A stretch of 64,000 nt of DNA, taken from NCBI GenBank assembly GCA_964244845.1, contig CAXTKE010000014.1, positions 86,048 through 150,047 on the forward strand, given 5' to 3'. Under the pieces are notes generated by a model. It searched no databases and was not told the origin of the DNA. It saw only the letters and a list, made by a program, of their open reading frames with translations. Positions 39,004-41,652 of this stretch are shown piece by piece. The translations under genes and the position numbers were made by a program. Source of the stretch: an uncultured Spirosoma sp. (GTDB lineage Bacteria; Bacteroidota; Bacteroidia; Cytophagales; Spirosomataceae). Positions within the stretch are counted from its first letter, which is position 1. Every line of letters begins with the position of its first letter.

Positions 39004-39351
39004 TTAGTCCAGCCACATCACTTTGTCATAGGCCAGTTCATAATCCATCTCTTCAAGCGGAACGAGGTTAGCAAAGTGGCCGGTTTCGTCTGTCCGAACG
39101 GCGTTCCAGCGGCCCGACGCGTCGCGCAGCAACAGCCGGTAGCCGTAGAGCGGGTGCAGCGTGTCACTATCCGTGCGGTGGTCCCAGCCGGTTTGCAGTT
39201 CAATGGCAAACGCAATGCGGTCCATTACCTCGCTCATCTGATTCGACAGGCTGTCGGCACCATCCAATTCCTCAATCCACAACACCAGCCCATCTGTACC
39301 CCAATCGAAGTGAAGATCGCTGGGGGTGAGGGTAATAATCGACGCGTTCAT
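39004..39351 (-). CDS. Hypothetical acidic protein, MGE-type
   Basis: 115 aa; YRLLLRDASGRWNAV...GHFANLVPL; last gene of the apparent operon. Confidence 0.7.
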   Translation of the reverse strand: MNASIITLTPSDLHFDWGTDGLVLWIEELDGADSLSNQMSEVMDRIAFAIELQTGWDHRTDSDTLHPLYGYRLLLRDASGRWNAVRTDETGHFANLVPLEEMDYELAYDKVMWLD

Positions 39352-39356
39352 AACGT

Positions 39357-39420
39357 GTTTGTTGTTTGTGGTTTGTTGGTTTGTCGTTAACGCAGAACAT
39401 CAAACGACAAACAACAAACT
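39357..39420. repeat. Periodic inverted repeat, 7-nt unit (GTTTGTT)
   Basis: gtttgtt-gtttgtg-gtttgtt-ggtttgtcgtt ... aaacgac-aaacaac-aaact. Confidence 0.75.
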
Positions 39421-39422
39421 AT

Positions 39423-40217
39423 TTATGCACTCATGCTCCAGGCCGGAATCAGTTGGGTTTGAGGCTCCTGTTCCTCACGCCATTTGCGAAGCCAGAAACG
39501 GTATTTCTTCCGGCCATAGTCCATAAATCCCGGAATCGACGTCGCATCGACAGCAAACAGCCGGTAGGGCCGTTGTTTCATAACGCCGATGAACACAAAC
39601 CGAAACTGCTTCGTTGTGGCCCATTCCTGACCATCGGCATAGCGGAGGCTGTCAATATAAAAAGCGGCCTGCCGGTCGTAATCATAGGTGTAACATGATT
39701 CCAGAAACTGCGCCTGTGTGCGGGCCGATGTGGTTTTAAGGTCAATGACCATCGCATTCCGGCGTTTTGGGCTGGTATAGACCATGTCGAGCCGGGCTTT
39801 ACAGGGAACGCCGGTAGTTGGTTCGGTCGATAAAATAATCCGTTCCCGCTCCGACAGTCGCAGATACCGCCGACAAAAACCGTCCTGCCGAATGGTCTGC
39901 ATGAGGGCCTGCAATTGCTTTGTTTGGGTCGGAGCCAGCGCGTTGGTATCGGGCTGAATCAACGGGTCGACCAGGTCGGGAAGGAACTGCGACAGTACCG
40001 TGCCGACCGTTTCGGGTTCGAGCAGGTGCTGGTGAAAAGCCCGGCCAAACACTTTCGTTTTTTCGGGGATAAACCGCGCCGAGGGCACCGACCAATAGCC
40101 CAGATGCTCTTCTTTGAGCCGGGTCAGGTCAGAATTGGAAACGCGCGACAAGGCACGGTACTCGTCGCCGGGGTTAAAAAGCGGCTGGTAAGACGGTATC
40201 AGACGTTGAGAAACCAT
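39423..40217 (-). CDS. PD-(D/E)XK exonuclease, RecE/ExoVIII C-terminal (DUF3799) type
   Basis: VSNSDL, FGRAFHQHLLEP, VPCKARLD, VIDLKTT, YDYDRQAAFY, FVFIGVMK. Confidence 0.88.
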   Translation of the reverse strand: MVSQRLIPSYQPLFNPGDEYRALSRVSNSDLTRLKEEHLGYWSVPSARFIPEKTKVFGRAFHQHLLEPETVGTVLSQFLPDLVDPLIQPDTNALAPTQTKQLQALMQTIRQDGFCRRYLRLSERERIILSTEPTTGVPCKARLDMVYTSPKRRNAMVIDLKTTSARTQAQFLESCYTYDYDRQAAFYIDSLRYADGQEWATTKQFRFVFIGVMKQRPYRLFAVDATSIPGFMDYGRKKYRFWLRKWREEQEPQTQLIPAWSMSA

Positions 40218-40225
40218 AAGAGATT

Positions 40226-40314
40226 AGTGGAATAGGTAAAATGAGTGAAGTGAGTGTAACGGGTGACGCGTACGCATTGTACTTACTTCACCTATTACAC
40301 TCACGCTACTATTC
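40226..40314. repeat. Degenerate periodic inverted repeat, 9-nt unit family
   Basis: agtggaataggtaaaatgagtgaagtgagtgtaa ... acttacttcacctattacactcacgctactattc. Confidence 0.6.
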
Positions 40315-40319
40315 TCTGA

Positions 40320-40958
40320 TTACCCGGCGGCCAGTAACGCTGGCTCGTCGATGGGGATAGCGAACGGATTGTAATAGTTCATTGCCGTTTTGATGTTGGC
40401 AATGTCCGTCAGGGTTTCCTGCCGGAAAACTTTCACGTCCTGCGCAAACTGCTTCAACTCCTTCGTTTGCTCAACATCAGCCATTTTGTAGGAGAAGTTA
40501 GCGATGTAATACACGCCCTTCGGCTGAATCTTCGTGTTTTCCTTCTTTTCGGCAACGGCTGTAATCACCACATCGGCCAGCGTCAGGTCGTCGTAATACA
40601 GCGGTTCGATGAGCCGGAAAATATTGTCTACCGAATACCCATGAAACAGCACGGCGGATACGCAGTTTTTCTCGTCGATGAAGAAGATCTCCGCCCAGTT
40701 TTTGGTGCCCATATTCAGGATGTTATCCGTAAAAATGCGCCACGCAATCGGCTGGAACGTAAGGGTGCGGCCCAGTTTCTCGCTGCCGTTGATATTGAAC
40801 ACACCTTCCTTCGCATCGAACCGGTACTGGCGGGGGTGCCCCTCCAAATACTTGTATTTGTTAACCACCTCGCCGGTCAACTCATGAATCTTTTGATAAG
40901 GTTTCAGGGCGTTGCCGCTTTGAATTGTCTCGATTTGGGTTTTGTTTTGTGTGTTCAT
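40320..40958 (-). CDS. Hypothetical protein, candidate ssDNA-binding/annealing partner of the exonuclease
   Basis: 212 aa from ATG 40958, first gene of the operon; aromatic-rich beta-strand pattern (YRFDAKEGVFNING, WAEIFFID, GVYYIANFSY). Function is inferred from context only. Confidence 0.65.
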   Translation of the reverse strand: MNTQNKTQIETIQSGNALKPYQKIHELTGEVVNKYKYLEGHPRQYRFDAKEGVFNINGSEKLGRTLTFQPIAWRIFTDNILNMGTKNWAEIFFIDEKNCVSAVLFHGYSVDNIFRLIEPLYYDDLTLADVVITAVAEKKENTKIQPKGVYYIANFSYKMADVEQTKELKQFAQDVKVFRQETLTDIANIKTAMNYYNPFAIPIDEPALLAAG

Positions 40959-41044
40959 TAGTATTTGTTGTTTACTGTTCAAGCAGGGGACCCATTTTGA
41001 GGTCCCTTTTGCCTTTTTTAAGGGTCGTGTTTACTGACTTAAAA

Positions 41045-41062
41045 TTACATAGTTTTGTGTAA
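41045..41062. promoter_or_regulatory. Operator-like palindrome 1, overlapping the probable leftward promoter
   Basis: TTACAT-AGTTTT-GTGTAA; on the minus strand TTG...20 nt...TAATTTTA resembles the Bacteroidota -33/-7 promoter. Confidence 0.55.
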
Positions 41063-41270
41063 AAAAGCAAGCCTGAATCCTGCCTATTTTTGGGCTGTCT
41101 AAAGGTTTTGAACAGACGACATAATCAACAACGTATTTCTCTAAAAGAACACATCTGGACCAGTTATAGTGCCTCTTTCTGATCGAATTAATGCGTTTTT
41201 AGGAGAGAACTTAGCCACTGGTACGGGCGTCTGATGCAGCCAATATAGACCGTTCGCTTTTTTATCAGTT

Positions 41271-41290
41271 TTTACATAAATAAATGTAAA
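41271..41290. promoter_or_regulatory. Operator-like palindrome 2
   Basis: TTTACAT-AAATAA-ATGTAAA, ending 2 nt before the HTH gene ATG. Confidence 0.6.
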
Positions 41291-41292
41291 TT

Positions 41293-41652
41293 ATGACTAT
41301 CCACTTTCGCCTTCAGCAACTCATCGACTCGCTCGACATCAGCGTGCTCGAATTCTCCCGACAGTTGGGTGAACACCGGGGCGAAAAAGTTTATCATATT
41401 TTACATGGTCGCCTAAAGCCCCGCTACGATACGCTCGAAAAAATTTTAGCGGCCTATCCGCAGGTGAACGGCGACTGGCTGCTGCGGGGCGAAGGGCTGA
41501 TGTTTAAAGTACTTAACTCGCCCTCCGCAGCCATCACCACCGAGGAACGATTGCGAAATGTGGAGTTCCTGCTTTTTCAACTCAACGAGCGCGTAGCCCT
41601 GCTCCAGCAAACTAATGACCAGCTTTTGGCGGAGTTGAGGGAAGGGAAGTGA
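41293..41652 (+). CDS. XRE/CI-like HTH regulator with coiled-coil tail and no S24 peptidase domain
   Basis: RLQQLI...EFSRQLG...KPRYDTLEKILAAYPQVNGDWLLRGEGLMF (the WLLxGxGxMF ending is typical of phage repressor N-domains). Confidence 0.88.
   Translation: MTIHFRLQQLIDSLDISVLEFSRQLGEHRGEKVYHILHGRLKPRYDTLEKILAAYPQVNGDWLLRGEGLMFKVLNSPSAAITTEERLRNVEFLLFQLNERVALLQQTNDQLLAELREGK

What the first reader, a model, noticed from the sequence alone, without database searches (positions are those of the whole stretch)
39004..41652. Free-standing phage-type recombination module: RecE-like exonuclease, an unknown partner and a divergent CI-like repressor
Seen: a minus-strand operon (212-aa unknown, DUF3799 nuclease, 115-aa unknown, terminator) faces an HTH gene whose ending is typical of phage repressor N-domains. 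There is no integrase, replication, structural or lysis gene, no att-like repeat and no obvious GC shift, and ordinary host genes flank it. Established: RecE/Red-alpha-type exonucleases are usually paired with an annealase (RecT/Red-beta, Erf, Sak, Sak4) or an SSB. The adjacent 212-aa protein shows none of those motifs that I can recognise. Inference: a domesticated, regulated single-strand-annealing or repair system using an undescribed SSAP/SSB family. It could be relevant to DNA-damage tolerance, or serve as a native recombineering tool for Cytophagales.
Basis: partly seen in the sequence, partly recalled or inferred. Interest (0 to 1): 0.75.

Follow-up and report, generated by a model that had tools for sequence, protein, structure and literature searches.

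The report
Domesticated phage-type exonuclease and ssDNA-binding operon
A three-gene operon of phage or plasmid origin (an unknown DNA-handling protein, a RecE-like exonuclease and a small acidic protein), controlled by its own repressor, is a fixed single-copy chromosomal locus in Spirosoma and ten related genera, and its first protein belongs to an undescribed family that most likely binds single-stranded DNA.

Summary
A minus-strand operon faces a 119-aa HTH gene. It holds a 212-aa unknown protein, an intact DUF3799/RecE-like nuclease, a 115-aa unknown protein and a terminator.

The four genes sit at the same chromosomal locus, between GalU/GHMP-kinase and pentapeptide/DUF748 genes, in at least 10 genera. 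All are under strong purifying selection (omega 0.02-0.26). No integrase or structural genes lie nearby.

Paralogs of the 212-aa gene lie in real prophages and conjugative plasmids, usually close to a DUF3799 nuclease. The phage-type origin therefore holds.

The 212-aa family has no Pfam, PHROG, NCBIfam or PDB match. Its confident AlphaFold model matches only uncharacterised phage proteins, with a few named SSBs further down the list. About 5% of family members end in the host SSB tip DLPF. I read it as a new SSB-like, possibly annealing, partner of the exonuclease. This is inferred, not shown.

New here:
- Two conserved operators, TTACAY-N6-RTGTAA.
- A covarying 5' hairpin.
- A 25-nt leader that is almost letter-perfect in 94 genomes although synonymous sites are saturated.

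Function in repair or recombination is untested.

The parts
38943..38980 (-). Intrinsic terminator of the operon: AAACCGGCCGGGC-loop-GTCCGGCCGGTTT, then GTTTGTTT
   Evidence: Read directly from the sequence.
39004..39351 (-). u115, a 115-aa very acidic protein (pI 4.2, net charge -15) found only in this clade; third gene of the operon
   Evidence: ORF. Only 91 homologs, all at least 54% identical and all from module-bearing genera. AF2 pLDDT 86 with a b-b-a-b-b-b-a topology. No PDB fold match. Omega 0.04-0.26. Charge.
39423..40217 (-). DUF3799 / RecE-like PD-(D/E)XK exonuclease with an intact active site (D144, D159-x-K161, Q183xxxY187)
   Evidence: Pfam PF12684 E 1.2e-17 and phrog_412 E 1.8e-30. 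The catalytic residues are conserved in at least 95% of 44 chromosomal and mobile homologs. Omega 0.07-0.18.
40217..40311 (.). Non-conserved spacer between u212 and the nuclease; holds a REP-like inverted repeat (GTGAGTGTAA...TTACACTCAC) that may act as an attenuator or insulator
   Evidence: The spacer is only about 20% conserved across genera.
40320..40958 (-). u212, a 212-aa member of an undescribed family; candidate non-canonical SSB-like ssDNA-binding (possibly annealing) protein. It has a beta-rich core (residues about 21-195) and an acidic C-terminal tail ending in the conserved motif NYYNPF..(D/E)EPxLLxAG
   Evidence: No family match. 248 clusters at 50% identity. AF2 pLDDT 94. BFVD hits E 2e-7 to uncharacterised phage proteins, with named SSB/DUF669 hits lower down. 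The PDB top list is canonical SSBs but not significant. DLPF tips in 5-6 of 119 family members. Omega 0.02-0.10.
40956..40980 (-). Ultraconserved leader GAACAGTAAACAACAAATACTAATG, ending in the u212 start codon
   Evidence: 100% identical in every syntenic ortholog examined. Present in 94 of 401 family genomes and 11 of 51 genera, almost always once per genome. 94 of the 97 listed matches are exact; one genome's only copy differs by one base. The reversed control gave 0 matches. Absent from mobile paralogs.
40981..41014 (-). Conserved bipartite 5'-UTR hairpin (AGGCA AAA GGGACC-loop-GGTCCC C TGCTT)
   Evidence: The inner stem shows compensatory changes between genera. The outer pairs switch only between G-C and G-U on the sense strand.
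41040..41047 (-). Candidate Bacteroidota -7 promoter box TAATTTTA (consensus TAnnTTTG) of the operon
   Evidence: Read from the sequence. Conserved as TAwwTTTA in the orthologs. The assignment rests on the known Bacteroidota promoter consensus (my knowledge); no TSS data.
41045..41062 (.). Operator O1, TTACAT-N6-GTGTAA, overlapping the -7 box
   Evidence: Lies 84-87 nt upstream of the u212 ATG in 18 of 18 orthologs that have the HTH gene. Missing, together with the HTH gene, in Fibrella/Fibrivirga.
41272..41289 (.). Operator O2, TTACAT-N6-ATGTAA, 3 nt before the HTH start codon (autoregulation site)
   Evidence: Lies 3-20 nt upstream of the HTH ATG in 15 of 18 orthologs.
41293..41652 (+). HTH119: small HTH regulator with a C-terminal coiled-coil-like segment and no S24 peptidase domain; candidate repressor of the operon and of itself
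   Evidence: HTH_19 E 0.018 and phrog_8 E 3.5e-5. 76-93% identity across genera. Omega 0.01-0.06.

Best explanation
This is a chromosomally fixed, repressor-controlled operon derived from the early recombination region of Bacteroidota temperate phages and conjugative plasmids. It was inherited vertically in the Spirosoma-Fibrella-Fibrisoma-Nibrella-Larkinella-Rudanella-Arsenicibacter-Tellurirhabdus clade.

Shown:
- The nuclease is an intact RecE/lambda-Exo-class PD-(D/E)XK enzyme.
- The locus is conserved and strongly constrained.
- The operators, the hairpin and the leader are conserved.

Inferred:
- The HTH dimer binds O1, which overlaps the -7 box, and O2, which lies at its own start. It thereby keeps the operon and itself repressed.
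- When the operon is derepressed (the signal is unknown), the nuclease resects double-strand ends 5' to 3'.
- u212, a new SSB-like protein with a beta-rich core and an acidic C-terminal tail, coats the exposed single strand. It may anneal it and recruits partners through its tail. Together they give RecET/Red-like, RecA-independent end processing for repair or recombination.
- The abundant u212 protein probably limits its own translation through the invariant unstructured leader next to the 5' hairpin, as T4 gp32 does.
- u115 is an accessory factor, possibly an acidic DNA mimic or nuclease modulator.
For: Synteny: HTH | u212-DUF3799-u115 is flanked by GalU-GHMP-u160 on one side and Penta-DUF748 on the other, in loci from at least 10 genera.

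Distribution: the leader tag is present in 94 of 401 family genomes and 11 of 51 genera, including 50 of 54 sampled Spirosoma, almost always once per genome.

Selection: dS is above 1 while dN for u212 is 0.03-0.16, similar to GalU.

Nuclease: the catalytic motifs are intact.

Phage or plasmid origin, and pairing with a nuclease:
- a prophage in L060 with TerS, TerL, portal and head genes;
- a prophage in L086;
- plasmids pFLIM01 and pSLIN02, where the gene sits next to topoisomerase III, a primase or the VirB4 tra operon;
- the order u212...DUF3846-DUF3799 recurs in many loci.

SSB-like reading of u212:
- 4 of the 5 named hits among the 50 listed BFVD matches are ssDNA-binding proteins or DUF669. 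The top hits are uncharacterised phage proteins of similar size (E down to 2e-7, prob 1.0).
- The PDB list is headed by bacterial SSBs, though not significantly.
- 5-6 of 119 family representatives end in D-L-P-F/Y. This is the tip of the host's own SSBs (DDDLPF, SDDLPF). In the genome's ORFs, 4 of 4919 match the loose tip pattern, and only the host SSB ends in LPF.
- 71% of family members have net-acidic tails.
- The near-invariant residues are rich in aromatics and arginines: Y37, R46, F54, R74, F76, W88, F92/93, Y122, F155 and R179.
- No canonical SSB lies in any of the 55 loci that carry the gene.

Regulation: both operators keep their positions. The HTH gene and O1 are lost together in Fibrella/Fibrivirga.
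Against: - There is no direct evidence that u212 binds DNA.
- Structural similarity to solved OB-fold SSBs is poor (E at least 0.02, TM 0.2-0.3, rmsd about 10 A).
- hhalign against the host SSB and against T7 gp2.5 finds nothing.
- The window's own copy lacks the DLPF tip; it ends EPALLAAG.
- The inducing signal is unknown. The repressor has no sensor or cleavage domain, and the operators do not match the published Bacteroidetes LexA motifs GGA-N5-TCC and CTAA-N5-TTAG (PMC8565304).
- No expression data could be obtained.
- The three long strands followed by a helix (residues 70-122) would also suit a Rad52-like annealase.
Confidence: 0.5

Rival explanations
1. u212 is a true single-strand annealing protein (a functional RecT/Bet/Erf analogue) of a new or very divergent Rad52-like fold. 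The pair u212 + DUF3799 is then a classical two-component recombinase that relies on the host SSB.
For: DUF3799 nucleases normally accompany recT (PMC8093625). The gene order and tight pairing with the nuclease recur in prophages and plasmids. The model holds three long antiparallel strands followed by a long helix (E70-79, E85-94, E99-106, H108-122). This resembles the beta-beta-beta-alpha core of Rad52-type SSAPs (my knowledge). The size of about 210 aa fits Erf or Sak.
Against: No RecT, Redbeta, Rad52 or Erf structure appears among the 50 listed PDB matches, and no named SSAP among the 50 listed BFVD matches. No Pfam or PHROG SSAP family is hit by any of 97 members. SSB-type DLPF tips are a hallmark of SSBs, not of SSAPs. 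In prophage L086 the gene occurs with no nuclease nearby.
Confidence: 0.22
2. The module is an anti-phage or anti-plasmid defence or exclusion system: a domesticated nuclease with a sensor and a modulator, under an HTH regulator.
For: Small HTH regulators commonly sit upstream of defence operons, and PD-(D/E)XK nucleases are frequent effectors (my knowledge). u115 is extremely acidic and could be an immunity or inhibitor protein. Prophage and plasmid copies might serve in superinfection exclusion.
Against: PADLOC finds no significant match; the only hit is u115 to a Type II REase model at E 0.015. Defence loci are typically patchy and sit in variable islands, whereas this one is single-copy, syntenic and near-universal across 11 genera. 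Its constraint is at housekeeping level.
Confidence: 0.1
3. u212 is not a nucleic-acid-binding protein. It is instead a regulator, inhibitor or scaffold of the nuclease (Gam-like end protection or an immunity protein), or has some unrelated function.
For: No significant match to any solved DNA-binding fold. The core is near neutral (pI 6.4).
Against: DLPF tips, acidic tails and the SSB/DUF669 hits in BFVD all point the other way. The gene occurs without a nuclease in some prophages, which argues against a dedicated nuclease inhibitor.
Confidence: 0.13
4. The locus is a decaying remnant of a prophage or ICE with no host function.
For: Its closest relatives are in mobile elements. Chromosomal and mobile copies exchange.
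Against: All four genes are intact in every genome examined. Omega is 0.01-0.26 although dS exceeds 1. The position is fixed across at least 10 genera. The regulatory DNA is ultraconserved.
Confidence: 0.03

Closest known systems
Phage two- and three-component recombination modules: RecE/RecT (Rac) and lambda Red (Exo, Bet, Gam)
   Same: A RecE/lambda-Exo-class PD-(D/E)XK nuclease is co-transcribed with a roughly 200-aa partner and a small acidic third protein. The operon is repressor-controlled. Relatives sit in prophage early regions.
   Different: The partner matches no RecT, Redbeta, Erf, Rad52, Sak4 or gp2.5 profile. The module is not in a prophage but is a fixed host locus in 11 genera. 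u115 has no similarity to Gam.
Non-canonical phage SSBs: T7 gp2.5 and DUF669-type SSBs of N4, Lc-Nu and PhiAT3 (Hutinet 2018, as cited in PMC8093625)
   Same: About 200-230 aa, a beta-rich core plus an acidic C-terminal tail, and encoded next to recombination or replication genes. gp2.5 both binds and anneals ssDNA. DUF669 and SSB-annotated proteins appear among the weaker BFVD structural hits.
   Different: No profile similarity: hhalign probability below 1% against gp2.5, and no Pfam DUF669 or DUF2815 hit. The structural similarity is only partial.
Bacterial SSB (PF00436) and plasmid leading-region SSBs
   Same: Some family members carry the same C-terminal DLPF tip as the host SSBs. Plasmid copies lie beside the tra/VirB4 region, where plasmid ssb genes usually lie (the placement rule is my knowledge).
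   Different: No PF00436 match. The core is about 175 aa rather than a 105-aa OB domain. The chromosomal lineage replaced the tip with (D/E)EPxLLxAG.
Deinococcus DdrB/DdrA (radiation-induced alternative SSB and annealing proteins; from my knowledge, not tested here)
   Same: The concept is the same: a lineage-specific alternative ssDNA-binding protein serving RecA-independent single-strand annealing in radiation- or desiccation-tolerant bacteria. Many Spirosoma species are radiation tolerant.
   Different: No structural hit to DdrB among the 50 listed PDB matches. Induction by damage is untested here.
T4 gp32 translational autoregulation (my knowledge)
   Same: An SSB-type gene is preceded by a structured element followed by an unstructured A-rich leader.
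   Different: Purely an analogy. Binding of u212 to its own leader is untested.

Membership tests
RecE / lambda-Exo-like PD-(D/E)XK nuclease (Pfam DUF3799, PF12684) | Profile match above the curated threshold | tested here: met
   64.9 bits against a cut-off of 26, E 1.2e-17. phrog_412 'exonuclease VIII' E 1.8e-30.
RecE / lambda-Exo-like PD-(D/E)XK nuclease (Pfam DUF3799, PF12684) | Catalytic motifs D ... (D/E)xK and QxxxY | tested here: met
   D144, D159-L-K161 and Q183-AAF-Y187 are conserved in at least 95% of 44 chromosomal and mobile homologs.
RecE / lambda-Exo-like PD-(D/E)XK nuclease (Pfam DUF3799, PF12684) | 5'-3' dsDNA exonuclease activity | not testable with these tools
   Needs an enzyme assay.
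Canonical bacterial SSB (PF00436) | Profile match to the SSB OB domain | tested here: not met
   No Pfam hit for u212 or for any of 97 family members. hhalign against the host SSB gives probability 1.3%.
Canonical bacterial SSB (PF00436) | OB fold | tested here: inconclusive
   The Foldseek PDB list is headed by SSBs, but with E at least 0.02, TM 0.16-0.32 and rmsd about 10 A.
Canonical bacterial SSB (PF00436) | Acidic C-terminal tip (DDLPF in this host) | tested here: inconclusive
   Present in 5-6 of 119 family representatives. Absent from the window's copy, which ends DEPALLAAG.
Known SSAP families (RecT/Redbeta, Erf, Rad52/Sak, Sak3/DUF1071, Sak4, gp2.5) | Profile or fold match to one of the families | tested here: not met
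   No Pfam, PHROG or NCBIfam match. No such structure among the 50 listed matches in either the PDB or BFVD. hhalign against T7 gp2.5 gives probability 0.6%.
Known SSAP families (RecT/Redbeta, Erf, Rad52/Sak, Sak3/DUF1071, Sak4, gp2.5) | Adjacency to a cognate exonuclease in phage early regions | tested here: met
   u212 lies close to DUF3799 in the chromosomal module, in prophages and in plasmids.
Known SSAP families (RecT/Redbeta, Erf, Rad52/Sak, Sak3/DUF1071, Sak4, gp2.5) | Annealing of complementary ssDNA | not testable with these tools
   Needs biochemistry or recombineering.
CI/LexA-type phage repressor | N-terminal HTH DNA-binding domain | tested here: inconclusive
   HTH_19 scores 15.4 bits, below the cut-off of 30.2. 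phrog_8 'transcriptional regulator' E 3.5e-5.
CI/LexA-type phage repressor | C-terminal S24 autocleavage domain | tested here: not met
   The protein is only 119 aa and has no S24 match. Residues after the HTH look like a coiled coil (sequence).
CI/LexA-type phage repressor | Palindromic operators at the regulated promoters | tested here: met
   TTACAY-N6-RTGTAA lies at a fixed distance from the u212 ATG in 18 of 18 orthologs, and near the HTH ATG in 15 of 18. Actual binding is untested.
Integrated mobile element (prophage, ICE) | Integrase, structural or transfer genes, att repeats, variable location | tested here: not met
   None in the locus. The flanks are the same across genera. The paralogs, by contrast, do meet this criterion.
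Known anti-phage defence systems (PADLOC-DB 2.0) | Match to a defence-system model | tested here: not met
   Only u115 against a type II REase model at E 0.015, which is insignificant.

The most novel reading that the evidence does not exclude
u212 founds a new fold family of SSB/annealase proteins, shared by Bacteroidota phages, conjugative plasmids and one host clade. With the RecE-like nuclease it forms a host-owned, RecA-independent double-strand-break repair pathway that contributes to the radiation and desiccation tolerance of the Spirosoma clade. The protein controls its own synthesis by binding the invariant 25-nt leader and hairpin.
Probability: 0.2. Interest if true: 0.85.

Novelty: new variant of a known kind. 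Interest (0 to 1): 0.65.

Why it matters
If u212 binds or anneals ssDNA, it adds a new family to the short list of SSB and SSAP folds. It would also be a native exonuclease-plus-partner pair for recombineering in Cytophagales, where genetic tools are scarce. The locus is an unusually clear case of a phage recombination module becoming a core host operon. It is kept with housekeeping-level constraint across 11 genera, many of which are known for radiation tolerance. The leader is letter-perfect in over 90 species-level genomes. That is a rare degree of non-coding conservation and offers a direct handle on a post-transcriptional control mechanism in Bacteroidota, which lack Shine-Dalgarno-based initiation.

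Tried and rejected
- A tblastn hit of u212 to a 'PD-(D/E)XK nuclease' of Synechococcus phage S-SZBM1 (E 0.5) was rejected. hhalign aligned only 14 columns.
- SOS control via the published Bacteroidetes LexA motifs was rejected. GGA-N5-TCC and CTAA-N5-TTAG do not match the operators here.
- An Rfam search of the module found only meaningless miRNA-like hits on an intergenic hairpin.
- hhalign of the family profile against the host SSB and T7 gp2.5 found nothing.
- Scanning all 97 aligned members against Pfam and PHROGs gave no recurrent family.
- I tried to identify the BFVD hit R9ZZE1 in the Cellulophaga phage phi17:2 record. No 242-aa gene lies in the first 50 kb, and I abandoned this as too costly.
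- The UVC transcriptome paper on S. montaniterrae (PMC10036542) reports KEGG-annotated genes only and does not mention this locus.
I used A2 for viral contigs and the single protein for genome contigs instead.
- The fold search for u115 gave no significant match. The weak echoes of restriction-endonuclease and Hjc folds are not significant.

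
Full report
**Observation.** On the minus strand lie a 212-aa ORF (40320-40958), a 264-aa ORF (39423-40217) and a 115-aa ORF (39004-39351). A 119-aa ORF (41293-41652) faces them on the plus strand.

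- The 264-aa protein is a DUF3799 PD-(D/E)XK nuclease (Pfam E 1.2e-17; PHROG 412 'exonuclease VIII' E 1.8e-30).
- Its motifs D144, D159-x-K161 and Q183xxxY187 are conserved in at least 95% of 44 homologs.
- The 212-aa protein (u212) and the 115-aa protein (u115) match nothing in Pfam, PHROGs, NCBIfam, PADLOC or PDB sequences.
- The HTH assignment is weak but consistent (HTH_19 E 0.018; phrog_8 E 3.5e-5).
- A strong hairpin plus T-run follows u115.
- There is no GC shift, no tRNA and no flanking direct repeat of att type.

**Is the module free-standing and conserved?** Yes.

- In S. endbachense the order is GalU, GHMP kinase, 158 aa, HTH | u212, DUF3799, 115 aa, pentapeptide protein, DUF748. 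This is the same order as in the window.
- I fetched 20-kb regions around the best u212 hit in one or two genomes from each of about 20 genera. I mapped ten window proteins and ten mobile-element markers onto them by tblastn.
- The four-gene module is present in at least 10 genera, mostly with the same flanks.
- Identities to the window are 73-95% for u212, 76-93% for HTH, 52-86% for the nuclease and 58-90% for u115. For comparison, GalU is 84-95% and the GHMP kinase 78-91%.
- From record titles the genera are Spirosoma, Fibrisoma, Fibrella, Fibrivirga, Nibrella, Larkinella, Arsenicibacter, Rudanella and Tellurirhabdus.
- Pairwise NG86 estimates show that synonymous sites are saturated even within Spirosoma (dS above 1). 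Omega is 0.02-0.10 for u212, 0.01-0.06 for HTH, 0.07-0.18 for the nuclease and 0.04-0.26 for u115. GalU gives 0.02-0.18.
The chromosomal lineage does not meet it.

**Origin.** The u212 family is larger than this clade, with 248 clusters at 50% identity.

- The window's genome has two more paralogs (65% and 46% identical). Both lie in integrase-bearing islands, and one of them is followed by DUF3846 and a second DUF3799 nuclease.
- On plasmid pFLIM01 of Fibrisoma limi the gene lies among DUF3945/DUF4099, a Toprim primase, topoisomerase III and WYL_2 genes, with DUF3846-DUF3799 downstream.
- On pSLIN02 of S. linguale it heads an operon divergent from the ParA-like/VirB4 transfer genes.
- The second copy in the 7.03-Mb genome (L060) is flanked by an integrase, a PAPS-reductase-like gene and a DUF3799 nuclease on one side. 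On the other side lie small and large terminase, major head and portal genes. This is a real prophage.
- Another copy (L086) sits between terminase genes and an integrase.
- Ten IMG/VR contigs carry the family, and most of them show this arrangement.
- In a maximum-likelihood tree the chromosomal copies and their nearest mobile relatives form one short-branched group inside a long-branched, mostly mobile family. Some prophage copies nest with the chromosomal copy of their own host lineage, for example L058 with L066 (support 100/84). Genes therefore still move between chromosome and resident elements.
- The mobile-type nucleases are only 30-35% identical to the chromosomal nuclease, whereas u212 copies reach 83-87%.

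**What is u212?** AlphaFold2 on a 97-sequence alignment gives a confident model (pLDDT 94, pTM 0.86). It has nine strands, a long helix, a long hairpin, a second helix and a last strand.

- Foldseek finds no significant solved structure. The best hits are bacterial SSB OB folds, with E at least 0.02 and TM 0.16-0.32.
- In BFVD there are 21 hits at E of 1e-3 or better (best 1.9e-7, prob 1.0, TM 0.4-0.49). All are uncharacterised phage proteins of 185-409 aa. Among the weaker hits, four of the five named proteins are SSBs or DUF669.
- Five or six of 119 family representatives end in D-L-P-F/Y (DDLPY, DGLPF, SDLPF, NDLPF, DPLPF, DDLAF). The two canonical SSBs of this genome end in DDDLPF and SDDLPF.
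- Of 4919 ORFs in the genome, four match the loose tip pattern, and only the canonical SSB ends in LPF.
- Tails are net acidic in 71% of members.
- The chromosomal lineage has its own conserved tail, NYYNPF..(D/E)EPxLLxAG.
- Near-invariant residues are mostly aromatic or arginine.
- No canonical SSB lies in any of the 55 loci that hold the gene.
- Against membership in known families: hhalign against the host SSB and against T7 gp2.5 finds nothing. None of the 97 members hits any SSB or SSAP family in Pfam or PHROGs.

I therefore read u212 as a new, non-canonical SSB-like protein that may also anneal, as gp2.5 does. A dedicated annealase of Rad52-like architecture remains a live rival. DUF3799 nucleases normally accompany recT (PMC8093625), and the model holds a beta-beta-beta-alpha unit at residues 70-122.

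**u115.** This protein is restricted to the module-bearing clade: 91 homologs, all at least 54% identical. Its model (pLDDT 86) has no structural neighbour. It is very acidic, with net charge -15 and pI 4.2. A DNA-mimic or nuclease-modulating role analogous to Gam is only a guess.

**Regulation.** Aligning the u212-HTH intergenic region of 18 orthologs shows islands of conservation in otherwise unalignable DNA.

- *Operators.* Two palindromes, TTACAY-N6-RTGTAA, were already noted by another first-stage reader (e1-5270743).
  - O1 (41045-41062) lies 84-87 nt upstream of the u212 ATG in 18 of 18 orthologs. It overlaps a Bacteroidota-type -7 box (TAATTTTA, 41040-47).
  - O2 (41272-41289) lies 3-20 nt before the HTH ATG in 15 of 18.
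  - Fibrella/Fibrivirga lost both the HTH gene and O1 but kept a TTTG...TATCTTTA promoter. This supports the pairing of regulator and operator.
- *Hairpin.* A bipartite hairpin (40981-41014) has an inner stem that changes by compensatory substitutions between genera: GGGACC/GGTCCC, GGGGTC/GACCCC, GGGAGC/GCTCCC and GGGGC/GCCCC. Its outer pairs toggle only between G-C and G-U on the sense strand. That favours an mRNA structure.
- *Leader.* The 25 nt from the hairpin to the start codon, GAACAGTAAACAACAAATACTAATG, are invariant.
  - A pattern search allowing up to 2 mismatches finds the leader in 94 of 401 family genomes and 11 of 51 genera, almost always once per genome. This includes 50 of 54 sampled Spirosoma.
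  - 94 of the 97 listed matches are exact, and one genome's only copy differs by one base.
  - The reversed control gives no match.
  - The leader is absent from all mobile paralogs and matches nothing in Rfam.
- With dS above 1 in the neighbouring codons, this is very strong constraint. I propose translational control, perhaps autoregulation by u212 as for T4 gp32. The rival is a plus-strand antisense RNA that uses the same hairpin plus TTTTGCCTTTTTT as its terminator.
- The operators do not match the published Bacteroidetes LexA motifs (PMC8565304). The repressor has no cleavage domain. The inducing signal is therefore unknown.

**Limits.** No library of predicted cellular structures was available. 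DNA binding, annealing, nuclease polarity, repressor binding and any phenotype are all untested.

**Verdict.** The functional part is plausible, leans towards an SSB-like partner, and remains inferred. The module is a new variant of the exonuclease-plus-ssDNA-protein recombination module, with an unusually conserved leader as an added, unexplained feature.

Noticed in passing
window 37099-37232, 40217-40311, 41643-41811: A dispersed REP-like inverted-repeat family built of 9-nt periodic units (GTGAAGTGA / TCACTTCAC type). It occupies three intergenic spots in and around the module. A 21-mer from it has 17 sites (up to 2 mismatches) in the genome, against 0 in the reversed control.
   Followed up: partly
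window 41850-42332: A 160-aa very acidic, low-complexity protein (pI 4.3) with no family match. It is syntenic with the module, downstream of the HTH gene, in most genera. It could be a stress protein or a fifth member of the locus.
   Followed up: no
window 38142-38819: A 225-aa gene with a signal-peptide-like N-terminus and no family match lies between u115 and the pentapeptide gene. It is absent at this position in S. endbachense and other relatives, so it is a local insertion.
   Followed up: no
own genome C9:96058-96615 (L004) and C16:69504-70016 (L005): Two further u212 paralogs (65% and 46% identical) sit in integrase-bearing islands. One island holds DUF6283 and DUF1643; the other holds DUF3846 and a second DUF3799 nuclease.
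   Followed up: partly
L066 / L042 / L013 / L017 (Fibrivirga algicola, Fibrella spp.): This lineage lacks the HTH gene and operator O1 next to u212 but retains the promoter, hairpin and invariant leader. It is a natural 'repressor deletion'.
   Followed up: partly
L058 vs L066, L084 vs L048 (tree): Prophage-borne u212 copies nest inside the chromosomal clade next to the copy of their own host lineage. This indicates recurrent exchange or gene conversion between chromosomal and mobile copies.
   Followed up: partly
L050, L053, L054, L055 (other Spirosomataceae genera): More distant u212 homologs (38-54% identical) are again next to distant homologs of the HTH gene (32-37% identical), here in convergent orientation. 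The HTH-u212 association may therefore predate the fixed chromosomal module.
   Followed up: no
window 39352-39422: A long hairpin lies in the spacer between the nuclease and u115. It produced spurious miRNA-model hits on both strands. Its sequence is not conserved across genera.
   Followed up: no
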